A stretch of 64,000 nt of DNA. It comes from a virus. The notes beneath the pieces were generated by a model. The model was given only the letters and a program-made list of their open reading frames with translations, did no database searches and had not been told where the DNA came from. Positions 7,250-49,842 of this stretch are shown here, piece by piece (the first letter of the stretch is position 1; each line of letters opens with the position of its first letter). The stretch is taken from IMG/VR virus record IMGVR_UViG_3300006046_000002, positions 1-64,000 of that record; one strand, 5' to 3'. The position numbers and the translations under genes were made by a program.

Positions 7250-7500
7250 CTGTTCACGATATCGATGATCTCGATGAGCTGATCACGTTCGTAACGTATC
7301 GTCCGGCATGGGTACGACCCGATGGATTTCCGTTGTCGTGGCAGCACTACGTCTACGGAATGCGACACATCGCGCGCGAAAACATACGCCATCAGTTATG
7401 GATGGCACAAGCATTTCGATTGGGACGCCAAGAAAAAGAAAACTGGGAAACGTTCCAGCGTGATACCAATCGTTTGACTGAGGTTCCAACGCATGGCTGA
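6758..7500 (+). CDS. Tail assembly chaperone GT-like fusion made by programmed -1 frameshift at 7183-7189
   Basis: The zero frame reads ...ELTNFF. After a -1 slip the frame continues ...FFLAVPDDVKRP... to the stop at 7498-7500, which overlaps the tape measure start at 7493. Confidence 0.65.
7183..7189 (+). promoter_or_regulatory. -1 ribosomal frameshift slippery heptamer T_TTT_TTC
   Basis: X_XXY_YYZ pattern in the zero frame (AAT TTT TTC). The -1 frame is open from here to 7500. Confidence 0.6.
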
Positions 7501-14200: not shown

Positions 14201-15603
14201 GGCTCAAGTCCGATTGGATTCCATTCTACTGGCAGGGCGCAGAAGCAACGACCGCCGTTGTTAGCGACGATACCGTGGTCATGGATTCTGTCGCTGACGC
14301 AACGGCATCGACTGATTTTCCGAATGCCGTTGGCCTCGCTGATTCAGCGACCACGCAAATCGATCGTGCCACAGCGGATACGATTAAAGTCGAAGTGAAA
14401 GATAGTTCGCTTGGTATTGTCAAGCTGAATGCGACGGGGACACGCAGTGACGGAACATTCCTACGCGGCGATAATACATTCGCTCCACCGACAATCGCTG
14501 GCGGGAGTGGTGTCGGCGCGGTGCTCGCGTACACCGAAGTGACTGGTGTCTCTCCGTCACTTGCGGACGAAGCGTCGGCGACGATCGTGCTCACGATGGC
14601 CAAGACGGTTGCGATTCAGCGCGTCACGACAAGTGCTGCCGCTTCTGTTCGGCTGTATTCAACACTCGCTGCCTTGAGTGCAGATATTGGACGAGGAAAT
14701 GTTGATCCGGCATTTGGTGGTGCCGGAGAATCACTGTTCGATGTGTCGCCTGGCGTGAGCTCGACATCGCTCATTCAAGAACCTCGGCGCAATGTCGTCT
14801 GTAACAACGGTGATAATCCGCGCTCTGGAAAGTTCTACATGCGTGTGACCAACAAAAGCGGCGGAACGGCGACGATCACGACCGTCATTCGGTATCTTCC
14901 GCTCGAAGGTGCTCCGGCAACGATTCCGCCCGATGTGCTCACGGGCATGCTGTGGGAATTCGATGTGCAGTCGTTGACACCAGTGGCCGACGGAACAGAA
15001 ACACTCATCGTGCCGAACTCTGGATTGCTCGGCGGTAACATCGGTAATGGATCGGGCTTTGGATCTGGTCCGAAGTATCGGACGAATCAGATCAACGGTC
15101 GTCCGGCGATCAAGATCACACAGATCGGTGGCAATACGCGAAGCTACGGATTGCCGACGGCTGGCTTTGTCGAGCCGACAGAGTCACACGTGTTCGCGAT
15201 CATGAAGACGATCGGTGGCGGTGCGGCGTGGATGGTGGGACCAGATCGTACATCGTTCCCCAATGCTCCGGGTAACGTGAGTGACTGGCATCAGACGAGT
15301 GTTGAGCGATTGGTCTCAATCAGCAACAATCCGAGCACGGGAGCATTTCTCTATCACTCGCATAGTTCAGTCGCACTGTTCGAAGCGGATGTCGGTCTTA
15401 CGCAGCGATTTATAGATACGACGAATACCGTGTCCGGAACAAGTCAGAGAACACTCCTCGGACATCTCGCTGGCGGATTCCTTGCCAGTGTATTCGAAGG
15501 ACTCCTCGGTCATTGGCGTTTCTATAGTGGTTCACTGACCGATGATGAAGTGCTCGGAATCAAGACCGCGATGAGTGATTACTGGGGAGGCGGATTCCTA
15601 TGA
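11272..15603 (+). CDS. Large tail hub / host-specificity protein (1443 aa) with C-terminal LamG-like domain
   Basis: TAATG coupling. Size and position are those of Tal/J-like proteins. The C-terminal ...LLGHWRFYSGSLTDDEVLGIKTAM resembles the end of concanavalin/LamG jelly-roll domains. Confidence 0.5.
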   Translation: MPNYLFQRLTFFADDDVTPLLGAVDVDGKVIDPTFSTDPEHVRPYLEFSEDTGQQDVDFLQGSSTIGTISLTILDKRRTANDQATGIFTWLQVSGTTGDTAVLRRRALWEGLLSDGITWVVLMNGVLTRVALNDDLVSYTIGLRDMRERERRVRLFVKNNNAVIDGSGNITISRGTCFFPLVGPMEGWGRPTKYDATLDRVVQYGAPQLEPTHGVKGKWIQDLLGGSYVYFDINDPTSGFVYAEGREDLFAKYGQSSYDGQGQILLSSGIFDTSYLTFDKYSYNNSIAQWSPNPTGGPWYTMKIMPANTGIIAFRDNIFEIVEGQSTLNFNLTGLNLSIPKGQPFKYVRSAKLIPSPGDTSPTNGQTVYVRYISNMQPEKDVPKYLEEETFGIFLKKIYDGEFSDPEVPPRVAYDLTAMNKMIADTPLMIGIVDEVVTDMRGWVEENIYKPLGYAPALSPDGTITPIKYALPDETVPLLMLTDANVEKATWEHSDENVINKVTFTYQRDMVPAVPSLNALAGVKINTTDIIIENWNIASIPLFDTKSLDYKPVTTHSVLVTGSKFIPRPNVSSEVGWRLAIARTADVIMRFGNGAQVCTVTAMGSDPDVAAAKIGGWSVLGVSWLPDYKTRKRGIARLMQITSIKRTTPISYEFTLLDAGPYEAAKTCPTVNNIQQYADGRVSVDVTGIPADTIARLEFAISDTEPPPESGAWMLLKRTQTTGTVYTTAQAPGVKVWIRWRGEAQGARPSAWCGVLNITIANTAQMVDARLILIDGVPRVSWDATSSTLGIRVLYQRHPEGSAQPTSLGSSIDADVNLNGSDGRGYIDLPFKLNPYEQITVQVVGYPGFSGGAVSGTAGMASQYMTAQYTVDIGPPTVLPIVSYSGGGLVGAATLTVNENLSTDTIGVQVKDDANTIWTLVTSGSDATPLLVAPGTVIASTSWWHQGSTFEQLLMGQGLTAGVTRTFYSQVTATKTGLKSDWIPFYWQGAEATTAVVSDDTVVMDSVADATASTDFPNAVGLADSATTQIDRATADTIKVEVKDSSLGIVKLNATGTRSDGTFLRGDNTFAPPTIAGGSGVGAVLAYTEVTGVSPSLADEASATIVLTMAKTVAIQRVTTSAAASVRLYSTLAALSADIGRGNVDPAFGGAGESLFDVSPGVSSTSLIQEPRRNVVCNNGDNPRSGKFYMRVTNKSGGTATITTVIRYLPLEGAPATIPPDVLTGMLWEFDVQSLTPVADGTETLIVPNSGLLGGNIGNGSGFGSGPKYRTNQINGRPAIKITQIGGNTRSYGLPTAGFVEPTESHVFAIMKTIGGGAAWMVGPDRTSFPNAPGNVSDWHQTSVERLVSISNNPSTGAFLYHSHSSVALFEADVGLTQRFIDTTNTVSGTSQRTLLGHLAGGFLASVFEGLLGHWRFYSGSLTDDEVLGIKTAMSDYWGGGFL

Positions 15604-21070: not shown

Positions 21071-21249
21071 TAGTGGACAAGTTGAATAGTGATTGCGCCG
21101 AGCAAGAACACAGCTATCGCCAGTAATCGCTCGATACGATTATTGACGGACATGATGCAGAAGGTTGCATAGAACATGTAGAAAACCGCTGCGAGCACAA
21201 CGGATCCGACACGCCAGACTTCGAGAGCATCATGAGTCATGTGAGTCAT
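21070..21249 (-). CDS. Small two-helix membrane protein (59 aa, below ORF-track cutoff)
   Basis: Hand translation gives MTHMTHDALEVWRVGSVVLAAVFYMFYATFCIMSVNNRIERLLAIAVFLLGAITIQLVH. ATGA overlap with the polymerase stop and TAATG overlap with the next start. Confidence 0.45.
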   Translation of the reverse strand: MTHMTHDALEVWRVGSVVLAAVFYMFYATFCIMSVNNRIERLLAIAVFLLGAITIQLVH

Positions 21250-23150
21250 GCGACCTTCCTCCGTGGAAGTTCAATCGATTTCTTGTCCGCCCAATTCTTA
21301 TCACTGCCTTTGAGATCAGCAAGAATCGGCACCGTGAAGTTCTTGTGGTCTTCGAGTAACTCGATCACACGACGATCTGTGCGCGGGCTACCCTCCGACT
21401 CATAGATGATATCATCGTGGACCTGCATCAGAATCGCGAGCTCACCTGTTCCACGCTGGAGCTCACGGTACACCATGACCATTCCTTCTTTCGCTTTGTG
21501 CGCGGCACTGCCCTGCACCTTGCTGTTCATGGCCTTGTATGCTTCGTTCTCATCGAGCCACCGATGATAGCCATACGCATCAGTCACATAACCGAGTGAC
21601 TTCGCGATCAGCTCTTCGTCCTTGGTGAACTGCCACATCTTCGCATACGACGCGCGCACGCGATCACGCAATAACTGCGCGAGTGTACGATACGGCGACT
21701 CCGCACGTGATGGCATGTGCCCGAGTTCAATGCATGACTGCCGTGCTTCTTCTGCGCTGATCTTGTCGATCAACTGCTCAGTCACTGCATCTTCGCCGGC
21801 TCCATACAACATCGCGAAGTTCATGGTCTTGCCACGATCACGCTGTTGATCGGTTGGTTTCTGTTTCTTCCGCAAACCGAAGATCAATCGTGCCAGCGCC
21901 GCGTGCGTGTCAAACTTTGGATCGTGCTTGAATCCGTGAATCAGCGTGGGCTCACCGCTGAAGTGCCCGGCATAGCGCATCTCAACCTGCGAGTAATCCG
22001 CTGATCGCAGAACCAATCCCTTTCGTGGAATCACGGCTGCACGAATACCGGAATCGCGAGCGAACTGATGGAACCCTTTCGTGGCCGACATCCGACCCGT
22101 GTCAACATTCTGATTGTAGTGCGAGTGCAGAAATCCGTGCGGGTCCAAGTTCCGCAATAGCGCACGACCTGATGACACCATCTTCGAGTGCTTGCGCCGC
22201 TTCAACAAGAGTGCCGCGAGTGAATGTGGCAATCGAAGCAAGACTCGCTTGTTCAACTTCTCGCCATCGATCTGCTCGAGCTCGAGTTCTTCCCAGAACA
22301 ACTCGCGGATTTGTGGATTCGAATTCCAGTTCAACTCGTACCCTGCCTTACGGTTCATCTTCGTTGTCAACTTCTCCGTGCGCCGCTGCGCTTTCTCGAG
22401 CCAGCCACGGATGAAGTCCTGATCCAGCAGCACACCACGCTCTTCCATATCGCGGAGTGCAATGGTCAGCCATCGCTCAGTCTGATACAATGACATGAGC
22501 GATGGATAGTCAGGGATCTGCGGCCAATGCTGAATCATCGAGATGAACATGTCGTACATACGCAGCGTATACCACGGATCACGCAATCCGTACTTGCCCG
22601 ACAAATGGATCGGCGCCACGAGCCAGTCGGCCATCGCGTTCTTGTGCCGACCGATGCGTTCCCGTATGGCGTCAAGCAGATCAGTCTCTGCTTCAGCCGC
22701 ACGTGGATCGACATAGAACGACGCCAGTGTCTTCAAGTCATGACTGTATGAGAACCACGGATACCGATTGATCGGCACGCCACGATTATCAATCAGTCGG
22801 CTCATGACGAGCGTGTCGTGCACGGGATAGTCGATATGAATACCGAACGTTTCCCGAATGACATGCATGTCGTACTTGGCATTGTGAAAGACCAACTTGC
22901 GTTTCTTCTTGACCTGATCTGCGTACCATCGTGCAGCGCGACCAAGTGCGTCACCGACGAAAAATGCAGCAGTATCGCCAGCAGCAAATCCAAGTCCGCC
23001 GACTCGATCGACCGTCCAATCAAGGCCAGTCGTCTCGGTGTCGGTAGCGAGAATGCCGTGACGAAGTTTGTCGAATACATCTTGAATTCCGTCGAGACCG
23101 CGCACGATGTACTGATACCGAGGTAGCGGTGATGCATAGACGTATTTCAT
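21246..23150 (-). CDS. Family A DNA polymerase with 3'-5' exonuclease domain
   Basis: Exo motifs ATDTETTGLDW and HNAKYDMHVI. Polymerase motif A SADYSQVEMRY, motif B RDRGKTMNFAMLYG, motif C MQVHDDIIYE. Confidence 0.9.
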   Translation of the reverse strand: MKYVYASPLPRYQYIVRGLDGIQDVFDKLRHGILATDTETTGLDWTVDRVGGLGFAAGDTAAFFVGDALGRAARWYADQVKKKRKLVFHNAKYDMHVIRETFGIHIDYPVHDTLVMSRLIDNRGVPINRYPWFSYSHDLKTLASFYVDPRAAEAETDLLDAIRERIGRHKNAMADWLVAPIHLSGKYGLRDPWYTLRMYDMFISMIQHWPQIPDYPSLMSLYQTERWLTIALRDMEERGVLLDQDFIRGWLEKAQRRTEKLTTKMNRKAGYELNWNSNPQIRELFWEELELEQIDGEKLNKRVLLRLPHSLAALLLKRRKHSKMVSSGRALLRNLDPHGFLHSHYNQNVDTGRMSATKGFHQFARDSGIRAAVIPRKGLVLRSADYSQVEMRYAGHFSGEPTLIHGFKHDPKFDTHAALARLIFGLRKKQKPTDQQRDRGKTMNFAMLYGAGEDAVTEQLIDKISAEEARQSCIELGHMPSRAESPYRTLAQLLRDRVRASYAKMWQFTKDEELIAKSLGYVTDAYGYHRWLDENEAYKAMNSKVQGSAAHKAKEGMVMVYRELQRGTGELAILMQVHDDIIYESEGSPRTDRRVIELLEDHKNFTVPILADLKGSDKNWADKKSIELPRRKVA

Positions 23151-25276
23151 GCTGAGTACCGCCGATGATTGCGAACATCCTTGATACCGACGCCCGACCA
23201 GCCACGCACACCTTCACGCTTGCGCGGTCGAATGTCGGTCCGCTCGCTGAGCAATCGGTTGAACGCGGTGTGAGACAACGGATTGCGACCGCGAGTTTCC
23301 TGCCACCAGTCCGCGAATGATTGGTACAACGCTGAACGCGTCGTCCATTCTGCCGGCTCCATACGACACCGTTCCTTGAAGAACTCGCTCAGAACATCGT
23401 ACTCTTCCTTGTAATCACTGATGGCCTTGCGCACTGTGTCCGGCGCCATCAGTCCGTTGCGTCGCCATTCTTCACACCCTTCCAACGCCCAATTCAGAAT
23501 GCCCGGCAATTCCTTGATCAGTTGCTTTCCGAGATTCTTCTTTCGCTTGTGCGCCGGAATGACGACCGTGAATGGAATCATCAAGATGCGCGACCAGAAC
23601 GCTTCGGTCTGTTCACGCACCAGTGGCAAGTGATTGGCCGCGAGCCAGAGCTTGAACTGTGGCCGAAATTCGAACGACGACTCGTACAGATTGCGTGCGG
23701 TGACGGTGTCACCTCCGGTCATCTGCTTCAGCACTGTCCCATCGAATGACCGATCACCGTGTGCTTCGATGGCCGCGACCATACGCGCACCTCGCATTCG
23801 CGCAAGATCATGTCGTGGTCCTTCGTTGCGCGTGCTTTGGAACGTGGAGAAATCAGCTTGCACGGAGTAGTCCGCCATCAATTCGCGCAGTGCTTCCATC
23901 AGGGTTGACTTTCCATTGCGACCTTGCCCGTAACAGAAGAACAAGACATGCTCGCGTGTGTCACCCGTGAGGGTGTACCCGATCGCACGCTTCATGAATC
24001 CAATCAGTGCTTTGTCGCCGGCGAAGATCTCATCCAGAAATCCTTCCCATCGCGGCGCTGTTGCGCCACGCACGAACGTGACTGGTGACAGCTTCGTGAT
24101 GTAATCAGTCTTCTTGTGCTTCAGCAACTTTCCGGTCGACAGATCGATCGTGCCGTTTTGCACATTGAACAACCATGTGTCCCGATCCAACTGATCCTCA
24201 CGAATCGAGATCTCTGGCTCAGTCTTCGCCAGATCCAGTACCGCACGAATACGCTCTGCTCCTTCCGACTTGTACGCATGTTGCTGCACAGCCGCACGCT
24301 TTTCTTCATCGGCTGTTCGTTCAGCTTCAAGATGAATTGATCGGACGGTCTGTTTGGCCAGACGCATTGACTCTCCAGTCCGATCTGGTTCCCATCGTGC
24401 CTCTTGCCAGACGAACCATGGATTCGTGCGCTTTGATAAGACACTGCGCAGTCGCTCATGATGTTGGGTCACGAACCGTCGTGCGTTCCCGAGGTCAGTC
24501 AGATTCTCTTCTTCACCTGCCGGATTTTTCGCGCCAATGCTTTTCGCAATCTTGCGAAGTTGCTCGTCGCTGAGCGGCGGGCGGACGCGCGACGCATTCT
24601 CAATGCGGAGTGCCTCAAGGATTGCTCGAGGTGACGCACCTCGTCTGCGCATCGTTCCAGCAAGGGAGGTAAGAAGTTGATCACGTTCACCTTCATGTAT
24701 GATGTCAGGGAGTGGCGGGGCAATTTTCTTAATGCTCTTCTTTTCCAGAAATCGGAATAGCCGCTTCGGAAACGGAACCATATCAATCTTCTGTTCCCAC
24801 CGATAGGGCTCACCCGTATCGGGGTGAACACTTGGCGGTGCGACGACATAGCCACCGTCACCCAAGATATCGATCGCGACTTTCTTGTCGTTGAATGTGA
24901 AGGGACGGATCATGCGCTTGACTTGTGTTCCATCCCGCATCGGCAGAAAGTACAGATGCAGCCGACCCTCACGACTGATGGCCGACCGTGTGACTAATCC
25001 CTCCCGTGGAAGTTCAAGGCGCTTGAGAAACTTCTCGCCACTCGTTTCTTTCTCGTTCGGTTCATCCAGATCGATCACGATCGGACCGTGTTCACTATCA
25101 CACGCAATACCAACATTGGCATCAGGCCATTCTTTCCACCACGCCTTGATGGTCTTGACATCTGTGGTGGCGCTCCTGAATCCTCCTTTGATTCTCGGTT
25201 CTTTTCCTTTGAGTGGAAAGACCCTCCACCCGTACCGATTGGCATAGCGCAGTGCCGCTTTGAGTAACGGATTCAT
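23147..25276 (-). CDS. Bifunctional prim-pol / D5-P4-type primase-helicase
   Basis: N-terminal YGWRVFPLKGKEPRIKGGFRSATTD...WWKEWPDANVGIA (prim-pol domain). C-terminal Walker A FFCYGQGRNGKSTL, as in P4/D5 SF3 helicases. Confidence 0.85.
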   Translation of the reverse strand: MNPLLKAALRYANRYGWRVFPLKGKEPRIKGGFRSATTDVKTIKAWWKEWPDANVGIACDSEHGPIVIDLDEPNEKETSGEKFLKRLELPREGLVTRSAISREGRLHLYFLPMRDGTQVKRMIRPFTFNDKKVAIDILGDGGYVVAPPSVHPDTGEPYRWEQKIDMVPFPKRLFRFLEKKSIKKIAPPLPDIIHEGERDQLLTSLAGTMRRRGASPRAILEALRIENASRVRPPLSDEQLRKIAKSIGAKNPAGEEENLTDLGNARRFVTQHHERLRSVLSKRTNPWFVWQEARWEPDRTGESMRLAKQTVRSIHLEAERTADEEKRAAVQQHAYKSEGAERIRAVLDLAKTEPEISIREDQLDRDTWLFNVQNGTIDLSTGKLLKHKKTDYITKLSPVTFVRGATAPRWEGFLDEIFAGDKALIGFMKRAIGYTLTGDTREHVLFFCYGQGRNGKSTLMEALRELMADYSVQADFSTFQSTRNEGPRHDLARMRGARMVAAIEAHGDRSFDGTVLKQMTGGDTVTARNLYESSFEFRPQFKLWLAANHLPLVREQTEAFWSRILMIPFTVVIPAHKRKKNLGKQLIKELPGILNWALEGCEEWRRNGLMAPDTVRKAISDYKEEYDVLSEFFKERCRMEPAEWTTRSALYQSFADWWQETRGRNPLSHTAFNRLLSERTDIRPRKREGVRGWSGVGIKDVRNHRRYSA

Positions 25277-25288
25277 GAGGAGAGGGTT

Positions 25289-25321
25289 GTGTGAGCGCGT
25301 CAGTCGCGCACGCGCTCACAC
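25289..25321. other. Perfect 11-bp inverted repeat (GTGTGAGCGCG N11 CGCGCTCACAC)
   Basis: Arms at 25289-25299 and 25311-25321, in the gap between the stop at 25350 and the primase start at 25276. The core GAGCGCG/CGCGCTC and the flanking CATTAG are shared with the hairpin at 38493-38515, but in opposite orientation. Confidence 0.7.
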
Positions 25322-25349: not shown

Positions 25350-26024
25350 CTAGCGACGCTTGCCCTTGCCCTTCTTCTTGGGCTTGGGCTCGTCATCATC
25401 GTCGTCATCATCGTCGTCATCTTCATCATCGTCCTCATCGTCATCGTCATCGTCATCCGAATCATCGTCGTCATCGGAGTCATCATCATCCGAGTCGTCG
25501 TCATCATCGGAATCGTCATCGTCATCCTGATCCTCGTCATCGTCGACATCATCCTCATCATCCTCGATGTCGTCGTCCTCCTCGTCCTTGTCTGCCTTGA
25601 GCGGGAGGTACTGCAGGACCGGATTCTGTGGCTTGCCGTTGTACATCTTCTTGCCGATGACGGCACGAATCTCCTTGTCGTACTTCTTGATCAGCTTGAG
25701 GAGTTCCTGCAGCGTCATGTTCTTGGGCGGCTTCGTGATCCCGATCGCCTTCAGCACCTGAGCGATCTTCCAGCCGACATGCGGCGCGATGTTGTCAAAG
25801 ACGTTGACACCGTTGTGCTCCGTCTTCTTGCCGTTGTGCGCGCCACTCAGCGTCAGGATCAGGTTCAGGATGTTGCCGTTGCGTCCCGGCTTGATGGACG
25901 ACTTCGGGTTGAACTTGAAACGGTACTTCCCACCGGGCGCCGTCTTGAATTTCTTGCTACCCTTCCAGTCGTCCTTGTTCAAGACGATGACGTCGCCCTT
26001 TCCGCCCTTGTTCTTCTTGGCCAT
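25350..26024 (-). CDS. DUF669-like (putative ssDNA-binding) protein with ~67-residue poly-Asp/Glu tract and basic C-terminal tip
   Basis: Start taken at MAKKNKGG with GGAG upstream. The N-terminal ~140 aa resembles DUF669 proteins that accompany AAA_24 ATPases. The C-terminus is DKDEEDDDIEDDEDDVDDDEDQDDDDDSDDDDD...DDDDE followed by PKPKKKGKGKRR. Confidence 0.6.
   Translation of the reverse strand: MAKKNKGGKGDVIVLNKDDWKGSKKFKTAPGGKYRFKFNPKSSIKPGRNGNILNLILTLSGAHNGKKTEHNGVNVFDNIAPHVGWKIAQVLKAIGITKPPKNMTLQELLKLIKKYDKEIRAVIGKKMYNGKPQNPVLQYLPLKADKDEEDDDIEDDEDDVDDDEDQDDDDDSDDDDDSDDDDSDDDDDSDDDDDDDEDDDEDDDDDDDDDDEPKPKKKGKGKRR
25389..25595 (-). repeat. Low-complexity GAY/GAR codon tract encoding poly-Asp/Glu
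   Basis: The + strand shows runs of gtcatc/gtcgtc/atcatc. This creates spurious long ORFs in other frames and on the opposite strand. Confidence 0.85.
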
Positions 26025-26049
26025 TGTAATCGATCTCCGAAGATGAAGA

Positions 26050-26796
26050 CTACTTGGACTTGCGCTTCGTGGACTTCTCACCCGGACCGCTGCGAATCTT
26101 CTCGATCAGATCCGTCAAGACAGTGTAGTTGTCCAGGTCATAGCGGATCTTCCGCTCTTCGGGCGTGAACCACTTGGCCCGAGTCTTTGCATAGAACTCT
26201 CCTGCTTTCTGTTGAAGGTGCAAGTAACGAACACCCTTGTCATTCACACGCAGATAGATGCAGTGATCAAGGAAGTACGGCAGCTGATCGCGCATCTGCC
26301 CGATGAGTGACGGATACATCCACCCTTCATGTTCATTCAGTCGTTCGCCCATGATCAGCACCTTGACCGTGGGAATGGCCTTCATCTTCCGCAGATAGCG
26401 CCGAAGTTTGTTGGCCATGATACCGTACTCGCGCTGCTCAATCTGATCAGGCTCTTCGCGTGTTTCGCTCGCACGCTCAGCCAGCTTGTCCAGAATGATC
26501 GACTGAATATCATCAAAGTGATCGAGCACGACTGAATCAAATTTCTTGGACCAATCCTTTGCACCAGTGCCCGTCATGTTGTCATAGATGGCATCGAGAT
26601 CAGCCATGCTCTTGACGCGCACGCGCTTGACATGTGCCAACTCTGGCGTGTGATCGAGCGACATGGTGCCTTCGTTCGAATCAGCAAACAGTGGCCGTGG
26701 CCCTGTCGCCGCGAGCGAAGTTTTTCCTGCACCCGACATACCGAAGATACCGATCGTCGGATAGAGTCGGCGACCGCCGACGTCAAGCAGTTTCAT
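26050..26796 (-). CDS. AAA_24 / Sak4-like RecA-superfamily ATPase
   Basis: Start at MKLLDVGG with GGAG 6 nt upstream. Walker A IGIFGMSGAGKTSLA. Size and neighbours (DUF669-like, Cas4-like nuclease, SNF2) are typical of this phage recombination/replication module. Confidence 0.7.
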   Translation of the reverse strand: MKLLDVGGRRLYPTIGIFGMSGAGKTSLAATGPRPLFADSNEGTMSLDHTPELAHVKRVRVKSMADLDAIYDNMTGTGAKDWSKKFDSVVLDHFDDIQSIILDKLAERASETREEPDQIEQREYGIMANKLRRYLRKMKAIPTVKVLIMGERLNEHEGWMYPSLIGQMRDQLPYFLDHCIYLRVNDKGVRYLHLQQKAGEFYAKTRAKWFTPEERKIRYDLDNYTVLTDLIEKIRSGPGEKSTKRKSK

Positions 26797-26856
26797 GTCA
26801 GTCTCCAAAGTGAGTTGCGCGTTGAACAGATGCGCGCCCCCTGTCATACTCAGCGA

Positions 26857-27390
26857 CTACTTCCGCTTTGCAGCCTTCTTCGCGACCTTCTTGCCGCCGC
26901 GCTTGGCCGGAGTCTTCTTGGCCGCGCGCTTCGCACCCTTCTTGGCCGCGCCCTTGCGCCCACGCTTCGGCGCATCGTCCTCGTCCTCATCTTCATCCTC
27001 ATCCTCATCGTCGTCCGAATCCTCGTCCTCGTCTTCATCGTCCGAGTCTTCGTCGTCGTCTTCATCCTCGTCTTCGTCTTCGTCTTCGTCGTCCTCGGAG
27101 TCCTCGTCGTCCGAGTCTTCCTCCTCGTCGTCGTCCTCGTCGGAGTCATCCTCGTCCGCGTCCTCCTCCTCTTCCTCATCATCCTCATCCTCGTCCTTGC
27201 CCTTGGCCTTGCTCTTCTTTCCGCCCTTCACATCCGGGACATCGAGCTCGAACTCGAGCGACTCTGGCGCTTTCTTGAACATCCCCTTCGGAACCCAGAC
27301 CTTGATGAGGATGCCATCCTCGGTCCGAATGCCGAACGCGTGAGACTTGGGCGCCGTCTTCTCGAAGTCGAGCGTTTCCTGGATCTTCAT
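26857..27390 (-). CDS. Tripartite protein: 65-aa N-domain, 74-residue poly-Glu/Asp tract, 38-residue histone-H1-like Lys/Ala tail
   Basis: GGAGAAG lies upstream of the ATG. The sequence ...KGGKKSKAKGK + DEDEDDEEEEEDADEDD...EDEDEDD + APKRGRKGAAKKGAKRAAKKTPAKRGGKKVAKKAAKRK was read directly from the translation. Confidence 0.6.
   Translation of the reverse strand: MKIQETLDFEKTAPKSHAFGIRTEDGILIKVWVPKGMFKKAPESLEFELDVPDVKGGKKSKAKGKDEDEDDEEEEEDADEDDSDEDDDEEEDSDDEDSEDDEDEDEDEDEDDDEDSDDEDEDEDSDDDEDEDEDEDEDDAPKRGRKGAAKKGAKRAAKKTPAKRGGKKVAKKAAKRK
26974..27195 (-). repeat. Low-complexity GAR/GAY codon tract encoding poly-Glu/Asp
   Basis: The + strand shows ctcgtc/ttcatc/gtcctc runs. It generates antisense poly-Ser and Leu/Val-rich pseudo-ORFs. 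Confidence 0.85.
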
Positions 27391-27393
27391 GAT

Positions 27394-28395
27394 TTACTTC
27401 TCCGTGGATGGAATGGTGAACTGCTCTGCAATGATTGACTTGAGGTCGTGCTTGTTGCCGCGGTTGAGACACAACTCGTAGAAGTCACAATCGTACCGAC
27501 ACGACTCGCGTCGCGTGGGATAGATCGCGGCATCCAACATGTCACGCACCACGCGCAACGTGTCCCGCTCCCACATGATGAGGTCCTCGGGCGAACGCTC
27601 GATGGACTCACGTGCGAAGAGTGGGGCCTTCACGCGCGGACCCGGCATCTGTCTGCGCAGGACCGTGCGCCATGCAATGAACCGATCGTACCTCCTGTGG
27701 CGAAAAGGTTCCGGGAGAAGCCACGCATCCGTCGTCGATGATTTCCACATCGCCCACAGATACGTTGTGAGCTGAGCATCCAGATCCATCATGTCGAACG
27801 AGATGGCATTCTTCGTTTTGGTTTCGTCCAGTGCCAGCACCTTCTTGTAGATGCGAGGCTCGAACATCTCGTCGATCTTTCCACGGATCAGGATGCTCCG
27901 ATCTTTGACCAGTGGCAGTACGAACGCCCACTCAGGTACAACGTCCTTCTTGCCGATGTTGCGATCGCTGTGCTCATTGCTGTCGTCATCACGAACCCAT
28001 GCGATGTACCCTTGCAACATGGCCGTCGCGAGTTCACGATCTTTCGACGTGACGGGAACTTCAGTGACTTTCTTGAACGCAGCCTTCGCCGCAGTGTCCA
28101 TCGCTTTCGGCGTGCGCTCTCTGCGTTCAAGCTTGTAGAACTCTTCCTTTGTCGCGTGCACCAGAATCCCATTCACACGCGGCATCGACACTTTCTTTGA
28201 GCGGAGTCCCACGCGCTTATCCCAGTTCCACTGCAACCGACATCGCAAGAACTGACTGATCTCCGATGTACTGATGATCAGTGGTGTCTCTGGTGTCGGA
28301 ACGAATGGTTCCTTCATGCGTGGTCCGCCCTGCAATGGCCCAGTCATCTCAGTGCGATGAATCGACCGCTGAAAGAACAGACCTTTCCCTTTCAC
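27394..28395 (-). CDS. PD-(D/E)XK nuclease, Cas4/RecB-like with Fe-S cysteines
   Basis: GTG start proposed (AAGGAGG upstream, GTGA overlap with the SNF2 stop). Motifs GKIDEMF and LALDETKTK. One N-terminal Cys (FLRCRLQW) plus C-terminal CRYDCDFYELC, as in Cas4-type 4Fe-4S nucleases. Confidence 0.7.
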   Translation of the reverse strand: MKGKGLFFQRSIHRTEMTGPLQGGPRMKEPFVPTPETPLIISTSEISQFLRCRLQWNWDKRVGLRSKKVSMPRVNGILVHATKEEFYKLERRERTPKAMDTAAKAAFKKVTEVPVTSKDRELATAMLQGYIAWVRDDDSNEHSDRNIGKKDVVPEWAFVLPLVKDRSILIRGKIDEMFEPRIYKKVLALDETKTKNAISFDMMDLDAQLTTYLWAMWKSSTTDAWLLPEPFRHRRYDRFIAWRTVLRRQMPGPRVKAPLFARESIERSPEDLIMWERDTLRVVRDMLDAAIYPTRRESCRYDCDFYELCLNRGNKHDLKSIIAEQFTIPSTEK

Positions 28396-30035
28396 GCTGC
28401 CTCCTTCCATTCTCGCTTGAGTGCTTTTGCTACGGGGAACACCTTCGCAAAATCCTTGCGCTTGCCAGTGCGTGTCTCGAGCATGTGCTCCTCGTACGAA
28501 TCAGCCACGATGATATGGTAGCTCGTGCACGGTACGAGTTTTCCGGTGCCCTCCTCAGGACGACGCACGCGTCCCTCGGTCTGTTCAATATCGCGATGGT
28601 TCCATGGATGATCAAGGTAGATGATGGTGCCATACTTCCCGAAGTTCAGTGATGTACCACCGACCTTGATCATGATGATCACGGCATCGTACATCCCGCG
28701 CAGAAATTTCTTCTTTACCCGATTGACCTTGCGGCCCATGCCACCGACAACCAGACCGATCTTCAGTTTCTTATGCTCGAGAAACTTCTTCAGGCGCTTG
28801 GCTGTTTCACGCCACATCGTGAAGATTACTGGTGGCCGCCCTTCCAACTCCTTGATCAGTTCGTAGACGATCGGATACTTGACACTACGTTCGCTCGCTC
28901 CAAGTACTTCAGGATCGACGAGGTATTGCCGCATTCGTGTAATGCGCGCCAGCACGGAAGGAATGGCGAGTATCTTCTTCTCACCATGATGCGCCTCCAT
29001 CTCAGCAAAGAATTTCGTACGGAGTTTCTGATACTCCTTCTGTCCCTTCGCGGTGAGATGTGCCGTACACTGGACACGGGTGATGGGCGGAAGATTTGGC
29101 CAGACATCTTTCCACAGACGTCGAATGGTGAACGGCTCGATCTCCCACTTCAGCAACTTCGATCGCTTTGGTGAGCTGAGATCAAGTCCTCCGAACGCAC
29201 CCTCCTCAATGTCGATGTGCATGTTGGCCCATCGCCAGAACGAAGGATAGAGTTCAGGGTACAGAAACTTCAGTGAACTGAACAACTCAGCGACACTGTT
29301 CGCGTACGGATGAGCACCGCACGCTACTCGCCATTCAGCCTTCAGCTTGTGAATCGTCTTCGTGCGCTGCGCATTCCGGTTCTGAATGAACTGGAGTTCA
29401 TCGAGTGCCGCGAGGTCCCACGGTTTCGCGAGCCATCCTTCTCGTGCATGAACCAACGACTCCCAGTGCCCAATGACCCATCCGCGTTTCGTTCCCTTGA
29501 TCTGCGCGATCTGGTTCTTGGTCGTGCCTTCCAGTATCTCGATCGGTAACTTCCGTGTCGACCATCGCTCAATCTCGCCGGCCCACTGCTCCTTCGCCGT
29601 GTTCGGCACGATGATCATGTTGCGCACAGCTTCGAGATACTCAGCCCACCGGATGATGACTGGTGTCTTGCCCACACCAGCTTCCGACGTCAGCATCACG
29701 CCCGGAAGTTTCAGCTCATGGAGAATCGACATGTCTGCCCGCTGATGGCGGAACATGCGCGACGCGAGTGGATCATCCAACTGTTTGAAATCTTCACGTT
29801 GCTTCAGCTTGCGCACATACTCGACGTGTTCTTTCGCACGCTCGAGCACACGTTCAGCTTTCGGCGACATGATCATGCCTTGCTTGTGCGCCAGCTTGAG
29901 GATGGACATCACGCGAGGCGCCCAACCGTAGTCGCGCTTGATCGGAATAACGGCGAACTCTGAGCCAAGAATCTTGGCCATCATCCGCACATCTTCACGT
30001 TCCCACGTGATGCCACCCTCTTGCAGTCGGAGCAT
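28392..30035 (-). CDS. SNF2-family helicase
   Basis: Motif I TSEAGVGKTPV, motif II ALDELQFIQN, and a C-terminal helicase domain with ...LNFGKYGTIIYLDHPWNHRDIEQTEGRVRR. Confidence 0.85.
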   Translation of the reverse strand: MLRLQEGGITWEREDVRMMAKILGSEFAVIPIKRDYGWAPRVMSILKLAHKQGMIMSPKAERVLERAKEHVEYVRKLKQREDFKQLDDPLASRMFRHQRADMSILHELKLPGVMLTSEAGVGKTPVIIRWAEYLEAVRNMIIVPNTAKEQWAGEIERWSTRKLPIEILEGTTKNQIAQIKGTKRGWVIGHWESLVHAREGWLAKPWDLAALDELQFIQNRNAQRTKTIHKLKAEWRVACGAHPYANSVAELFSSLKFLYPELYPSFWRWANMHIDIEEGAFGGLDLSSPKRSKLLKWEIEPFTIRRLWKDVWPNLPPITRVQCTAHLTAKGQKEYQKLRTKFFAEMEAHHGEKKILAIPSVLARITRMRQYLVDPEVLGASERSVKYPIVYELIKELEGRPPVIFTMWRETAKRLKKFLEHKKLKIGLVVGGMGRKVNRVKKKFLRGMYDAVIIMIKVGGTSLNFGKYGTIIYLDHPWNHRDIEQTEGRVRRPEEGTGKLVPCTSYHIIVADSYEEHMLETRTGKRKDFAKVFPVAKALKREWKEAA

Positions 30036-36230: not shown

Positions 36231-37796
36231 TTAGGACTTCTTGTTGGTCCAGCTGAAGTCGATGTCGAGGTCCTCGTCGCCCACGACCTTCGGCTCCTCC
36301 GGCATCCGGATCGTGTTGATCGGCTGCTCCCGCTTGCGCAGCTCCTCGATCCGCTTGCGCTCGGCCTCGAGCCGCACCTTCTCCTCCGCCTCGCGCCGCT
36401 CTGCCTCGATCTTCCGGAGCCGATCGGCGATGACCTTGACGTCCGTGAGCGGCACCCACGGCGCGTGAATGCGGATCGTGCTGGCGCGGCTCGGCGACAG
36501 ATACAACATGTCGCCCCGACCGAGCAGTCCCTCAGCACCCTTCATGTGGAGGATGACACGCGAGTCCTGCATCGACGTCACCTTGAACGCCATGCGTGCC
36601 GGGAAGTTCACCTTGATCCGGCCTGACAGGACGTCGACCGACGGACGCTGAGTTGCCGCCACCATGTGGATGCCAGTGGCGCGGGCGATCTGGCTGATTT
36701 CCGCGATGAGCCGAGTGAACTCCTTGCGGTCCTGCATCATCAGGTCACCCAACTCGTCGATCACGCAGACAATGCGCGGAAGCTTGGCCTCTGACTTCGA
36801 GCCCTCGACCACTCCGTTGTACTCCTTGATATCCCGGACTCCCTTGTACGACAGGAGGTTCAGGCGGCGCCGCATTTCACGCACCAGCTTTTCCAACATC
36901 TCCTTGGCGCGGTGCGGCGACGTGACCATCGCTTCCTTCATGTGCGGGATGCCGTTGTAGTGCATCAGCTCCACACCCTTCGGGTCAATCATGTAGAACT
37001 CCAACTCCTCCGGCGTGCACACCGTCAGCAGCGAGCTGATGATGCAGTTCAGGCTGACCGACTTGCCCGCGCCAGTGCTGCCAGCGATCAGCAGATGCGG
37101 CATCGTTGCGAGGTCGTCGATGATCGGCTCACCGAACGGATCCGTGCCCAGATTCAGCGGGAGCTCCATACCTTTGGCCTTGGCCGACCGCACCGACTGA
37201 AGCGACGCACGGAACCCAACGTTCTGGCGCTCGCTGCTTTCGTTGGAGATCTCGATACCCATGACGTCCTTGCCAGCGATGCGCCGCACCATCACGGCAT
37301 CAGCGCTGAGCGCCAGTGCCAAGTCCTCCTGCAGATTGATGAGCCGCCGGATGCGCGTGCTCTTGGCGGGCTGAAACTCGTACAACGTGATGACGGGTCC
37401 CTTGCGCACGGCCATCACCTTTCCGGGGCACCCGAAGAACGAGGCGCGCTCCTCGATGGTCTCCTTGGCCTCGCGCTGATCGGGCGTCATTTTCGTCGTG
37501 ACATCCTCTCCGGTCTCGAGATCGCGGGACACGACCGTCAGGCCTTTCGGCGCCACGAACTTCGGCATGCGCTCGGCCTTGCTCGACTTCTTGAGCTGAC
37601 CCTTGACCTTGACCTTGCTCGCCTTGCGGACTTCTGCCTTTGTCTTTTTCACTGGCTTCTTCTCCGTGGACTTGGTGGACTTCGCCTTCCCCGAACCGCC
37701 ACACTTCAGGCACTTCTTCATCGACACGCGGCCAGCCTTCTTGATGAGCGTGACGCCCATGCCAGCGCAGAACGTGCAATCGGTGGTCTTCTTCAT
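36231..37796 (-). CDS. Soluble FtsK/SpoIIIE-family ATPase with N-terminal zinc finger and Lys-rich linker
   Basis: Walker A LLIAGSTGAGKSVSLN, Walker B VCVIDELGDLMM, then ATQRPSVDVL. No N-terminal membrane helices. The N-terminus is CTFCAGMG...CLKCGGSG followed by KAKSTKSTEKKPVKKTK. Confidence 0.85.
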   Translation of the reverse strand: MKKTTDCTFCAGMGVTLIKKAGRVSMKKCLKCGGSGKAKSTKSTEKKPVKKTKAEVRKASKVKVKGQLKKSSKAERMPKFVAPKGLTVVSRDLETGEDVTTKMTPDQREAKETIEERASFFGCPGKVMAVRKGPVITLYEFQPAKSTRIRRLINLQEDLALALSADAVMVRRIAGKDVMGIEISNESSERQNVGFRASLQSVRSAKAKGMELPLNLGTDPFGEPIIDDLATMPHLLIAGSTGAGKSVSLNCIISSLLTVCTPEELEFYMIDPKGVELMHYNGIPHMKEAMVTSPHRAKEMLEKLVREMRRRLNLLSYKGVRDIKEYNGVVEGSKSEAKLPRIVCVIDELGDLMMQDRKEFTRLIAEISQIARATGIHMVAATQRPSVDVLSGRIKVNFPARMAFKVTSMQDSRVILHMKGAEGLLGRGDMLYLSPSRASTIRIHAPWVPLTDVKVIADRLRKIEAERREAEEKVRLEAERKRIEELRKREQPINTIRMPEEPKVVGDEDLDIDFSWTNKKS

Positions 37797-49797: not shown

Positions 49798-49842
49798 GTA
49801 TCCCTCGATGTGCATGGCGATGAGTCGTCATCAAGCATTTCT

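What the first reader, a model, noticed from the sequence alone, without database searches (positions are those of the whole stretch)
25350..27390. Two proteins with giant poly-Asp/Glu tracts and basic tips flank the AAA_24 ATPase
On either side of the Sak4-like ATPase sit two unusual proteins. One is a DUF669-like protein carrying ~67 consecutive acidic residues (mostly Asp) followed by PKPKKKGKGKRR. The other is a 177-aa protein made of a 65-aa N-domain, 74 acidic residues and a 38-aa histone-H1-like AKKAAKK tail. SSB-type proteins carry short acidic tails, but tracts of this length are closer to DNA mimics or histone-chaperone-like proteins. The acidic-then-basic arrangement could self-associate or phase separate. 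Possible roles are anti-restriction DNA mimicry, sequestration of host nucleoid proteins, or regulation of the recombination module.
Basis: partly seen in the sequence, partly recalled or inferred. Interest (0 to 1): 0.7.

Follow-up and report, generated by a model that had tools for sequence, protein, structure and literature searches.

The report
Phage SSB with giant acidic tail
In an uncultured phage, the protein that coats single-stranded DNA and a small neighbouring protein both carry very long acidic tails ending in a basic tip; this is an exaggerated form of the acidic tail usual in such proteins, and it probably helps recruit the recombination and replication partners.

Summary
Protein A (25350-26024, minus strand, 224 aa) has a 66-residue tract with 59 Asp/Glu, followed by PKPKKKGKGKRR. 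Protein B (26857-27390, 177 aa) has a 74-residue tract with 68 Asp/Glu, followed by a 38-residue Lys/Ala-rich tail. They flank a Sak4/AAA_24 gene inside a tight replication-recombination operon. Contigs from two other datasets match the window exactly across the parts of the tracts they cover, so this is not an assembly artefact.

[quoted passage not shown] Its homologs pass the Pfam threshold, its model has an OB fold closest to PrgE, and it sits directly downstream of sak4. Its acidic tail is expanded and ends in a K/R tip instead of the usual hydrophobic "PF" tip. This design holds in 21 of 22 relatives and also occurs in cultured Microbacterium phage Pikmin gp32.

B belongs to a tiny clade-specific family: a roughly 50-aa four-stranded beta domain plus a K-rich linker. 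Its acidic tail varies from 7 to about 90 residues, and its basic tip is optional.

The likely mechanism, which is inferred, is an electrostatic autoinhibitory and partner-recruiting tail. Nothing here supports DNA mimicry or anti-restriction, and nothing excludes it. I rate it a new variant of a known kind, of moderate interest.

The parts
25350..26024 (-). Protein A gene (224 aa plus stop): predicted DUF669-type OB-fold SSB with an extended tail
   Evidence: ORF. The 224-aa start is also called by an independent gene caller, with a GGAGA ribosome-binding site upstream. Fourteen homologs were found. Four of them pass the PF05037 gathering score.
25587..26024 (-). A residues 1-146: K-rich N-terminal arm plus OB-fold core, net charge +22
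   Evidence: AlphaFold2 model with pLDDT 75 and pTM 0.73. The best Foldseek match in PDB is PrgE 8S4T (E 1.2e-4, TM 0.51/0.55), followed by RPA, Cdc13, PriB and SSB OB folds. Charge.
25389..25586 (-). A acidic tract: 66 residues, 59 D/E, starting with the conserved motif KDEEDDDIEDD
   Evidence: The motif KDE[ED]DDD[ILV][ED]D is shared by close homologs.
25353..25388 (-). A basic tip PKPKKKGKGKRR (8 K/R of 12)
   Evidence: A Pro hinge followed by a K/R tail of 11-48 residues is present in 21 of 22 family members.
26050..26847 (-). Sak4-like AAA_24 ATPase. The longest ORF is given; the gene caller starts at 26796 (248 aa). It ends in the basic tail GPGEKSTKRKSK.
   Evidence: Pfam AAA_24 5.4e-17 and phrog_124 2.3e-29. 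Start. The C-terminal K/R tail is specific to this clade.
26857..27390 (-). Protein B gene (177 aa plus stop): clade-specific small protein
   Evidence: ORF. The exact protein is found on 7 contigs.
27196..27390 (-). B residues 1-65: four-stranded beta domain of about 50 aa plus the K-rich linker GGKKSKAKGK
   Evidence: AlphaFold2 pLDDT above 90 for residues 1-50, with strands at 2-12, 16-22, 28-34 and 44-50. T23, G26, W32 and P34 are invariant. No significant match to Pfam, PHROG, NCBIfam, PDB or BFVD.
26974..27195 (-). B acidic tract: 74 residues, 68 D/E
26860..26973 (-). B basic tail APKRGRKGAAKKGAKRAAKKTPAKRGGKKVAKKAAKRK (19 K/R of 38)
27394..28410 (-). PD-(D/E)XK exonuclease, directly upstream of B with a 3-nt gap
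   Evidence: Pfam PDDEXK_1 1.4e-14 and phrog_1218 4e-26.
28392..30035 (-). SNF2-family helicase, first gene of the conserved block
   Evidence: Pfam SNF2-rel_dom 3.3e-27 and Helicase_C 6.7e-11.
23147..25276 (-). PrimPol / D5_N / DUF5906 primase-helicase, downstream of A
   Evidence: Pfam Prim-Pol 2.5e-36 and D5_N 9.4e-26.
21246..23150 (-). 634-aa ORF read as a family A (Pol I-like) DNA polymerase from its motifs only; last gene of the block
   Evidence: ORF and translation. It was not scanned against Pfam, so the label is my reading of the sequence.

Best explanation
[quoted passage not shown] It is the DUF669/N4-SSB-type OB-fold partner that normally sits next to a Sak4 annealase.

Its C-terminus is a hyper-extended version of the family's acidic tail, with a net charge of about -59 over 66 residues. 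The usual hydrophobic 'PF' docking tip is replaced by a Pro hinge and a K/R-rich tip.

Inferred mechanism:
- Off DNA, the acidic tract folds back on the very basic OB core (+22) and on its own tip. This autoinhibits binding and blocks non-specific dsDNA binding.
- On ssDNA, the tract is released and serves as a multivalent, fuzzy electrostatic platform. Candidate partners are proteins with basic tails: the clade's Sak4, which ends in GP plus a K/R tail; neighbouring SSB tips, which would give cooperativity; and protein B.

Protein B is a clade-specific accessory protein. It has a small beta domain with conserved aromatic and basic residues plus a K-rich linker, so it probably binds nucleic acid. 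It carries the same kind of acidic (and sometimes basic) tail, and so plugs into or competes within the same network.

Shown: the sequence anatomy, family and fold assignment of A, synteny, and conservation patterns. Inferred: every binding event.
For: Identity of A:
- Fourteen homologs were found. The N-domains of four, at 53-58% identity to A, pass the PF05037 gathering score with 26.9-34.8 bits against 21, covering nearly the whole profile.
- The model has an OB fold closest to DNA-bound PrgE (E 1.2e-4), followed by a run of SSB/RPA/PriB folds.
- The gene lies immediately downstream of sak4, as published for DUF669 SSBs. About 80% of sak4 genes are next to an ssb, and HK620 SSB stimulates Sak4 through its C-terminal tip (PMC5928155). 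DUF669 is linked to N4 SSB and has acidic tails (PMC4889955).

The tail is selected, not accidental:
- 21 of 22 A-family members, down to 42% N-domain identity, keep a 47-104-residue D/E tract plus an 11-48-residue K/R tail behind a Pro hinge.
- The number of acidic residues scales with the K/R count of the tail (A: rho 0.69, p 0.003; B: rho 0.86, p 7e-7). This is not corrected for phylogeny.
- Mixed codons indicate an old tract rather than a fresh slippage product.

Precedent:
- Microbacterium phage Pikmin gp32 is DUF669 (29.6 bits) plus a D/E tract of about 80 residues plus a PAKK-type tail, downstream of an AAA ATPase.
- Other DUF669 proteins have acidic linkers followed by SAP/HeH DNA-binding motifs.

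Partners:
- Sak4 proteins of this clade end in GP plus a K/R-rich tail. HK620, Pikmin and bajarodcaudo Sak4 do not.

Operon:
- The order SNF2, PDDEXK, B, Sak4, A, PrimPol is conserved with gaps of a few nucleotides.

General principle:
- D/E repeats autoinhibit DNA-binding domains electrostatically (PMC10250230).
- SSB tails drive partner binding and condensation (PMC7584906).
Against: - The window's own protein A does not reach any Pfam hit.
- hhalign of the A profile against HK620 SSB finds nothing, and HK620 SSB itself does not hit PF05037 in this Pfam copy. The link to an experimentally proven SSB is therefore indirect.
- No binding was or could be tested.
- The canonical hydrophobic tip that mediates Sak4 recruitment in HK620 is absent, so the recruitment mode would have to differ.
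- B's N-domain has no significant structural or sequence relative.
- B is missing from the more distant genomes that still keep A's long tail, so B is dispensable for whatever A's tail does.
- B's tract length is poorly conserved, from 7 to about 90 residues.
- The charge correlation is not phylogenetically independent.
Confidence: 0.5

Rival explanations
1. The tracts are largely neutral low-complexity expansions. They would arise by slippage or unequal recombination of GAY/GAR codon repeats grafted on an ordinary short acidic SSB-type tail. They would act at most as an entropic spacer, and their length and the basic tip would have no specific function.
For: - B-family tails range from 7 to about 90 acidic residues among close relatives, and 12 of 23 members have no basic tip.
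- One A homolog (P0010) has only 7 acidic residues.
- Tandem Repeats Finder detects 18-45-nt periodicities at 70-80% identity, consistent with past tandem duplications.
- D/E-repeat DNA is known to be unstable in other systems (PMC9672403).
Against: - A's tract stays long in 21 of 22 members across 42-78% N-domain identity.
- The Pro hinge plus K/R tail is retained throughout the A family.
- Acidic and basic counts co-scale.
- Codon usage is mixed, and three datasets give 100% identical tracts where their contigs overlap the window. This argues against rapid ongoing length change.
Confidence: 0.2
2. One or both proteins, especially B, are disordered DNA mimics or decoys. They would sequester host DNA-binding proteins such as type I restriction enzymes, nucleoid proteins like HU or H-NS, or DNA-sensing defence systems.
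For: - The extreme negative charge density is comparable to that of known acidic decoys.
- D/E-rich regions can mimic DNA (PMC6294567, PMC10987829).
- B has no recognisable enzymatic or known domain, and its family is tiny and clade-restricted (8 hits at E <= 0.001, 6 of them convincing, among 1.84 billion representatives). That pattern is typical of accessory or counter-defence genes.
Against: - No similarity to Ocr, ArdA or any anti-defence family.
- Known phage DNA mimics are folded proteins with patterned carboxylates (PMC2806950), not low-complexity tracts.
- Both genes are embedded in the replication-recombination operon rather than in an early or anti-defence region.
- A has an OB-fold SSB core.
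- A conserved K/R tip would partly neutralise a decoy.
Confidence: 0.12
3. The acidic-block plus basic-block tails make A and B self-coacervating scaffolds. Together with K/R-tipped Sak4 and DNA, they would build a phase-separated replication-recombination compartment.
For: - Charges are fully segregated into blocks: A is +22, -59, +8 and B is +4, -68, +19.
- Three adjacent gene products carry K/R tips.
- Acidic and basic lengths co-scale.
- E. coli SSB condenses through its tail (PMC7584906, PMC12143593).
Against: - Net charge is strongly negative (about -29 for A and -45 for B), which disfavours simple self-coacervation without polycations or basic partners.
- Half of the B homologs have the blocks in the other order or lack the tip.
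- There is no experimental handle here.
Confidence: 0.15
4. The tracts are assembly or frame artefacts, and the poly-Ser ORFs on the opposite strand are the real genes.
For: Low-complexity DNA does break assemblies. Logan contig L006 ends exactly at the edge of A's tract, and L007 ends at B's stop. Long ORFs also exist on the plus strand.
Against: - The sequence is identical in contigs from two other datasets where they overlap the window.
- The N-domains in the minus-strand frame are conserved in dozens of homologs that carry the same tail architecture.
- The minus-strand frame fits the operon.
Confidence: 0.01

Closest known systems
DUF669 (PF05037) phage SSBs: HK620 SSB (HkaK), N4 SSB and phi105 ORF10
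   Same: Predicted OB-fold core. Gene directly next to sak4/AAA_24. Acidic C-terminal tail. In HK620 the tail tip is needed for Sak4 loading and annealing (PMC5928155, PMC4889955). Homologs of A pass the PF05037 threshold.
   Different: The window protein itself is below Pfam detection. Its tail is about 5-10 times longer (66 residues, 59 acidic). It ends in a K/R tip instead of the hydrophobic NDYPPF or DEDVPF tip.
Microbacterium phage Pikmin gp32 (annotated as hypothetical protein)
   Same: Same three-part layout: a DUF669 domain (29.6 bits), a D/E-rich tract of about 80 residues, and the Pro/Ala/Lys tail PEPAPKRRAPAKKAPAKAAPKKAPAKRTVRRR. It lies downstream of an AAA ATPase and an exonuclease.
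   Different: No detectable direct sequence similarity to A by tblastn. Its tract contains many Tyr, Leu and Phe residues. No B-like gene lies between the exonuclease and the ATPase. Its Sak4-like ATPase lacks the K/R tail. As far as I could find, it is functionally unstudied.
Acidic tails of E. coli SSB, T7 gp2.5 and T4 gp32 (from established knowledge)
   Same: A disordered acidic C-terminus that competes with ssDNA for the OB surface and recruits replication and recombination partners. gp32 additionally combines a basic arm with an acidic domain.
   Different: Those tails have about 10-50 residues of moderate charge and, in E. coli SSB and T7 gp2.5, an aromatic or hydrophobic terminal residue. 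Here the tract is nearly pure poly-D/E and the terminus is basic.
D/E-repeat autoinhibition in eukaryotic DNA-binding proteins (HMGB1-type; PMC10250230)
   Same: A basic DNA-binding module tethered to a long run of D/E that folds back electrostatically and tunes DNA binding.
   Different: Eukaryotic nuclear proteins with an unrelated fold. This is an analogy of mechanism only.
PrgE of plasmid pCF10 (PDB 8S4T; PMC11137577)
   Same: Best structural match to A's N-domain. It is an atypical OB-fold SSB with extra helices and an N-terminal arm used for filament-like binding.
   Different: Only 14-16% identity and TM about 0.5. PrgE has no long acidic tail.
Phage DNA-mimic anti-restriction proteins (T7 Ocr, ArdA)
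   Same: Very high density of carboxylates.
   Different: Those are folded, shape-specific mimics encoded among early genes. A and B have low-complexity tracts, an OB or beta domain, basic tips, and a position inside the replication operon.

Membership tests
DUF669 / N4-type phage SSB (PF05037) | Direct match of the protein to the PF05037 profile at or above the gathering score (21 bits) | tested here: not met
   No PF05037 hit for full-length A or for its N-domain, even at E <= 10.
DUF669 / N4-type phage SSB (PF05037) | Homology to proteins that do match PF05037 (transitive membership) | tested here: met
   P0009, P0010, P0011 and P0012 are homologous to A at E 7e-27 to 5e-34, with 53-58% identity over more than 90% of A's N-domain. 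They score 26.9-34.8 bits on PF05037, covering profile positions 7-134 of 138.
DUF669 / N4-type phage SSB (PF05037) | OB-fold core | tested here: met
   The AlphaFold2 model (pLDDT 75) best matches the OB-fold SSB-like protein PrgE (E 1.2e-4), then RPA, Cdc13, PriB and SSB. TM is only about 0.5.
DUF669 / N4-type phage SSB (PF05037) | Gene adjacent to a sak4 / AAA_24 gene | tested here: met
   A starts 25 nt after the Sak4 stop. The same order is seen in L001, L005, L008 and L010.
DUF669 / N4-type phage SSB (PF05037) | Acidic C-terminal tail ending in a hydrophobic SSB-type tip (such as NDYPPF or DEDVPF) that recruits Sak4 | tested here: not met
   The tail is acidic but ends in PKPKKKGKGKRR. 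There is no aromatic or PF tip. The nearest thing to a tip-like motif is the internal DDDIED at the start of the tract.
DUF669 / N4-type phage SSB (PF05037) | Preferential ssDNA binding and stimulation of Sak4 annealing | not testable with these tools
   This needs purified proteins. The assays are described in PMC5928155.
Canonical bacterial SSB (PF00436) | Match to the SSB profile | tested here: not met
   No hit in Pfam or NCBIfam.
Sak4 / AAA_24 annealase (the flanked gene) | Match to AAA_24 and to the Sak4 PHROG | tested here: met
   PF13479 at 62.7 bits against a cut-off of 27. phrog_124 at 2.3e-29.
DNA-mimic anti-restriction proteins (Ocr, ArdA) | Sequence or fold membership in a known mimic family | tested here: not met
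   No Pfam or PHROG match to such families. The folded parts are an OB fold (A) and a small beta domain with no relatives (B). The PADLOC library was not scanned.
DNA-mimic anti-restriction proteins (Ocr, ArdA) | Inhibition of restriction or other DNA-binding host enzymes | not testable with these tools
   This needs in vivo restriction assays or pull-downs.
Linker histone H1 / bacterial H1-like proteins | Winged-helix globular domain (Linker_histone) | tested here: not met
   No Pfam hit in B.
Linker histone H1 / bacterial H1-like proteins | Lys/Ala/Pro-rich low-complexity tail | tested here: met
   B's tail has 19 K/R in 38 residues, with AKK, AAKK and PAK units. This is a resemblance of composition only.

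The most novel reading that the evidence does not exclude
In this phage clade the usual 'hydrophobic tip into pocket' recruitment by SSB has been replaced by a purely electrostatic, multivalent code. The SSB (A), a small accessory protein (B) and Sak4 all end in K/R tips. A and B also carry giant poly-D/E blocks that bind those tips in trans. Together this would build a condensate-like recombination-replication hub, or B would act as an SSB-tail decoy that times Sak4 loading. A possible parallel is HK620, where the orphan HkaM upstream of sak4 ends in ...SELPF, resembling the SSB tip NDYPPF.
Probability: 0.15. Interest if true: 0.7.

Novelty: new variant of a known kind. Interest (0 to 1): 0.4.

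Why it matters
SSB tails are the organising hubs of bacterial and phage genome maintenance. The accepted rule is a short acidic linker ending in a hydrophobic tip that docks into partner pockets.

This clade, together with a cultured Microbacterium phage, keeps the SSB core but swaps the tip for a K/R block behind a 50-100-residue poly-D/E tract. It also puts the same tail on a second small protein and gives the partner Sak4 a basic tail. If the electrostatic reading is correct, this is a natural experiment in an alternative way of recruiting partners to SSB-coated DNA. It would also be a compact system for studying block-polyampholyte disordered regions in bacteria.

If the tracts turn out to be neutral expansions, the finding mainly shows how far low-complexity tails can drift in phage SSBs. 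Either way, the practical result is an annotation: A should be called an SSB, and the DNA-mimic label should not be applied without data.

Tried and rejected
- Direct Pfam, PHROG and NCBIfam scans of both N-domains gave nothing significant. Hits such as Nop14, BUD22 and phrog_10064 come from the acidic tract alone.
- megablast of the 9-kb module and tblastn of A's N-domain against GenBank phages gave no match.
- hhalign of the A profile against HK620 SSB was negative. HK620 SSB itself does not hit PF05037 in this Pfam copy.
- I tested whether B is a fragment or duplicate of A. hhalign of the B profile against the A profile was negative.
- I tested whether B's beta domain corresponds to the small C-terminal beta domain of Serbin, Almagne and STP12 DUF669 proteins. 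hhalign was negative.
- Foldseek of B's N-domain found nothing at E <= 0.001.
  - PDB: the best hits were small barrels of the Mop, TOBE and OB type at E >= 0.05 and TM about 0.45.
  - BFVD: the best hits were the uncharacterised 60-aa proteins PhiJL001 gp43 and phiAsp2 Pas48 at E about 0.03 and TM 0.6-0.69. PhiJL001 gp43 sits among small unknown genes, which is uninformative.
- The exhaustive profile search for B gave only 8 hits. Two of them (a Calx-beta-like repeat protein and a low-complexity protein) are spurious.
- Host inference failed. There are no tRNAs and no relatives in 185,579 GTDB genomes. The terminase and primase have mosaic best hits in phages of unrelated hosts.
- The exact-sequence cluster look-up found neither protein in that collection, so tract-length variation among near-identical strains could not be assessed.
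- I looked for a tail-sharing small protein in the phi105 module and found none.
- There is no within-genome similarity of A and B basic tails that would indicate ongoing gene conversion (compare).


Full report
**What is there**

The region lies in a minus-strand operon of a tailed phage. The window also encodes a large terminase, a portal and tail proteins. The gene order is:
- SNF2 helicase, 28392-30035
- PD-(D/E)XK exonuclease, 27394-28410
- protein B, 26857-27390
- Sak4-like AAA_24 ATPase, 26050-26847 (an independent gene caller starts it at 26796)
- protein A, 25350-26024
- PrimPol/D5_N primase-helicase, 23147-25276
- a 634-aa ORF at 21246-23150 that I read as a Pol I-type DNA polymerase from its motifs alone; it was not scanned

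Intergenic gaps are a few nucleotides.

Protein A (224 aa) has three parts:
- a basic N-terminal part of 146 residues, net charge +22
- a 66-residue tract with 51 Asp, 8 Glu, 4 Ser and one each of Ile, Val and Gln; the longest pure D/E run is 23
- the tip PKPKKKGKGKRR

Protein B (177 aa) also has three parts:
- a 65-residue N-terminal part
- a 74-residue tract with 40 Asp, 28 Glu, 5 Ser and 1 Ala
- a 38-residue tail with 19 K/R

'Consecutive' is a slight overstatement. No other ORF in any frame of the 64 kb has such a tract.

**Is it real?**

- The tract DNA uses mixed synonymous codons and is only 65-80% regular as a tandem repeat.
- Contigs from two other datasets are 100% identical to the window where they overlap. 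The Logan assembly of SRR5436190 covers all of B and nearly all of A's tract. The ENA ERZ27285692 contig covers B. A third contig, from ERZ27315194, is probably the window's own source.
- The N-domains read in this frame are conserved in dozens of metagenomic homologs with the same tail layout.

An assembly or frame artefact is excluded for practical purposes.

**What is protein A?**

The window's protein does not hit any Pfam, PHROG or NCBIfam model with its N-domain, so 'DUF669-like' could not be confirmed directly. It is supported indirectly in four ways.
- Four homologs with 53-58% identity over more than 90% of the domain pass the PF05037 gathering score, at 26.9-34.8 bits against 21, covering nearly the whole profile.
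- An AlphaFold2 model (pLDDT 75, pTM 0.73) is an OB-type barrel with extra helices. Its best PDB match is DNA-bound PrgE of pCF10 (E 1.2e-4, TM 0.51/0.55), an atypical SSB. It is followed by RPA, Cdc13, PriB and bacterial SSBs (PMC11137577).
- The gene sits directly after sak4. This is the published hallmark of DUF669 SSBs. Kazlauskas et al. linked DUF669 to N4 SSB and noted acidic tails (PMC4889955). Hutinet et al. showed that HK620 SSB is a genuine SSB whose last six residues, NDYPPF, are needed for Sak4 loading on SSB-coated ssDNA and for stimulating annealing (PMC5928155).
- No other SSB candidate was seen in the module.

I put the probability that A is the phage SSB at about 0.85. There are caveats. 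hhalign of the A profile against HK620 SSB is negative. HK620 SSB itself misses PF05037 in this Pfam copy. The chain to an experimentally tested protein is therefore indirect.

**Is the tail of A a conserved feature?**

Yes. I found 22 distinct family members, from protein searches and from IMG/VR loci, spanning 42-78% N-domain identity. Of these, 21 have a D/E tract of 47-104 residues, then a Pro-containing hinge, then a K/R-rich tail of 11-48 residues. Only P0010 has a short tail.

Close homologs also share a short motif at the start of the tract, KDE[ED]DDD[ILV][ED]D. This may be the remnant of an SSB-type tip, which is inference.

The design is not unique to this uncultured clade. Microbacterium phage Pikmin gp32, annotated as hypothetical, has a DUF669 domain (29.6 bits), a D/E-rich tract of about 80 residues, and the tail PEPAPKRRAPAKKAPAKAAPKKAPAKRTVRRR. 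It sits downstream of an AAA ATPase.

Other DUF669 proteins of cultured phages show a spectrum of C-terminal ends:
- phi105 has a short tail ending DEDVPF.
- Gordonia phage Azira ends ...DDDSLDLDDL.
- Clostridium phage CPAS-15 has acidic linkers plus SAP/HeH motifs (SAP at 25.3 bits).
- Serbin, Almagne and STP12 have acidic linkers, two HeH-like repeats and a small beta domain.
- Bajarodcaudo virus 5 has a tail of about 70 residues with an internal K-run and DDDLPF.

The general theme is an OB core, then a long acidic linker, then a second basic or DNA-binding element. A is the most charge-extreme, tip-swapped form of that theme.

**What is protein B?**

Its N-terminal 50 residues are predicted with pLDDT above 90 as four beta strands. 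T23, G26, W32 and P34 are invariant, and E10, K11, P14, K15, G20 and K30 are nearly invariant. A K-rich linker follows.

B has no relative in Pfam, PHROG or NCBIfam. Foldseek found nothing at E <= 0.001 in PDB or BFVD. The weak hits are small Mop/TOBE/OB-like barrels and two uncharacterised 60-aa phage proteins.

An exhaustive profile search of 1.84 billion representatives found only 8 hits, 6 of them convincing. The family is therefore tiny.

Of 23 members:
- 12 end in a short acidic tail of 7-23 residues, preceded by a longer K-rich linker
- 10 have an acidic tract of 14 to about 90 residues plus a Pro hinge and a K/R tip
- 1 has no tail

B occurs only in genomes whose A is at least about 70% identical to the window's. 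More distant genomes keep A's long tail but have another ORF, or none, in B's slot.

So B's giant tract is a lineage-specific expansion of a short acidic tail, and B is not required for A's tail to exist. B is unrelated to A and to the C-terminal beta domain of Serbin-type proteins.

**Further patterns**

- In both families the number of acidic residues in the tract correlates with the number of K/R in the tail (A: rho 0.69, p 0.003, n 16; B: rho 0.86, p 7e-7, n 21). This is not corrected for phylogeny.
- The Sak4 proteins of this clade all end in a short 'GP' plus K/R-rich tail, for example GPGEKSTKRKSK, GPTSRKSK and GPEGLRKLKTK. The Sak4 proteins of HK620, Pikmin and bajarodcaudo virus 5 do not.
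- Three adjacent gene products therefore carry basic tips, and two of them carry giant acidic blocks.

**Most likely mechanism (inferred)**

A binds ssDNA through its very basic OB core and N-terminal arm. Off DNA, the poly-D/E tract occupies that surface and its own tip. This matches what is known for the acidic tails of E. coli SSB, T7 gp2.5 and T4 gp32 (established knowledge) and for D/E repeats in eukaryotic DNA-binding proteins (PMC10250230).

On ssDNA, the tract is displaced and becomes a multivalent electrostatic platform. Candidate binders are Sak4's basic tail, neighbouring SSB tips (giving cooperativity) and B. This would replace the hydrophobic tip-in-pocket contact used by HK620 SSB.

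B is probably a small nucleic-acid-binding accessory factor of the exonuclease-Sak4-SSB unit. It would join or compete in the same network.

I put about 0.5 on this overall picture. The identity of A is much more certain than the role of the tails or of B.

**Rivals**

- Neutral low-complexity expansion (0.2). B's variability supports it. A's constancy, the conserved hinge and tip, and the charge co-scaling argue against it.
- Disordered DNA mimic or decoy against host defence or nucleoid proteins (0.12). No evidence found here supports it. The operon position and OB core argue against it. It is not excluded, especially for B.
- Block-polyampholyte condensate scaffold (0.15). This is compatible with the data and with SSB condensation (PMC7584906), but the strongly negative net charge is a problem.
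- Artefact (0.01).

**Verdict**

A is a new, extreme, tip-swapped variant of a known kind, the Sak4-cognate DUF669 SSB with an acidic tail, and it has an unstudied precedent in a cultured phage. B is a new small family of unknown function that shares the tail module. Interest is moderate at 0.4. The finding is not categorically new, but it offers a clean natural system for asking how SSB tails recruit partners when the canonical tip is replaced by charge blocks.

Noticed in passing
window 25289-25321 (minus strand): A perfect 12-bp inverted repeat, GTGTGAGCGCGT-(9 nt)-ACGCGCTCACAC, lies in the 73-nt gap between the stop of protein A and the ATG of the PrimPol gene. There is no T-run, so it is not a classical intrinsic terminator. 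It could be an RNA stability or processing element or a protein-binding site.
   Followed up: partly
L011 (phage HK620, AF335538) 5754-5942, minus strand: The orphan 62-aa protein HkaM, directly upstream of sak4, ends in ...VPSELPF. This resembles the functional tip NDYPPF of the HK620 SSB encoded downstream of sak4. It parallels the window, where the small protein upstream of sak4 shares its C-terminal module with the SSB. It is a single case. The phi105 module shows no such protein.
   Followed up: partly
L015 (Serratia phage Serbin), L021 (Pseudomonas phage Almagne), L014 (STP12), L016 (Clostridium phage CPAS-15), L020 (Brevundimonas phage Polewnik): DUF669-like proteins next to AAA_24 genes in cultured phages are 280-340 aa long. 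They carry acidic linkers alternating with SAP/Rho_N-like helix-extension-helix motifs. In Serbin, Almagne and STP12 they also carry a conserved small C-terminal beta domain (...VDGEEWEVELADL). All are annotated as hypothetical proteins. The DUF669 label is by Pfam only for CPAS-15; Serbin did not hit PF05037.
   Followed up: partly
L019 (Microbacterium phage Pikmin, MG944218) 659-1432: gp32 has a DUF669 domain, a D/E-rich tract of about 80 residues and a PAKK-type basic tail. It is a culturable model for the architecture of window protein A.
   Followed up: partly
window 26050-26085 and the Sak4 ends in L001-L004, L008 and L010: Sak4 proteins of this clade end in a 'GP' hinge plus a short K/R-rich tail. 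This is absent from the Sak4-like ATPases of HK620, Pikmin and bajarodcaudo virus 5.
   Followed up: partly
L008 3924-4253 (JGI 3300034420): In a distant relative, B's slot between the exonuclease and Sak4 is occupied by an unrelated 109-aa ORF with a LAGLIDADG-like motif (GFLEGEGCF). A thymidylate synthase gene is inserted between the SSB and the PrimPol gene.
   Followed up: no
L006 and L007 (window 25392 and 26858): Short-read contigs from other datasets break exactly at the edges of the low-complexity DNA: at the 3' edge of A's acidic tract and at B's stop. Such genes will often be truncated in metagenome assemblies.
   Followed up: no
window 36231-37796 (minus strand) and 57142-59766 (plus strand): The phage encodes an FtsK/SpoIIIE-like ATPase (phrog_1358, 2e-89). 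It also encodes an 874-aa tail-fibre protein whose matches include a collagen-like minor tail family. Several large ORFs (7493-10237, 11272-15603, 47668-49815) have no PHROG match.
   Followed up: no
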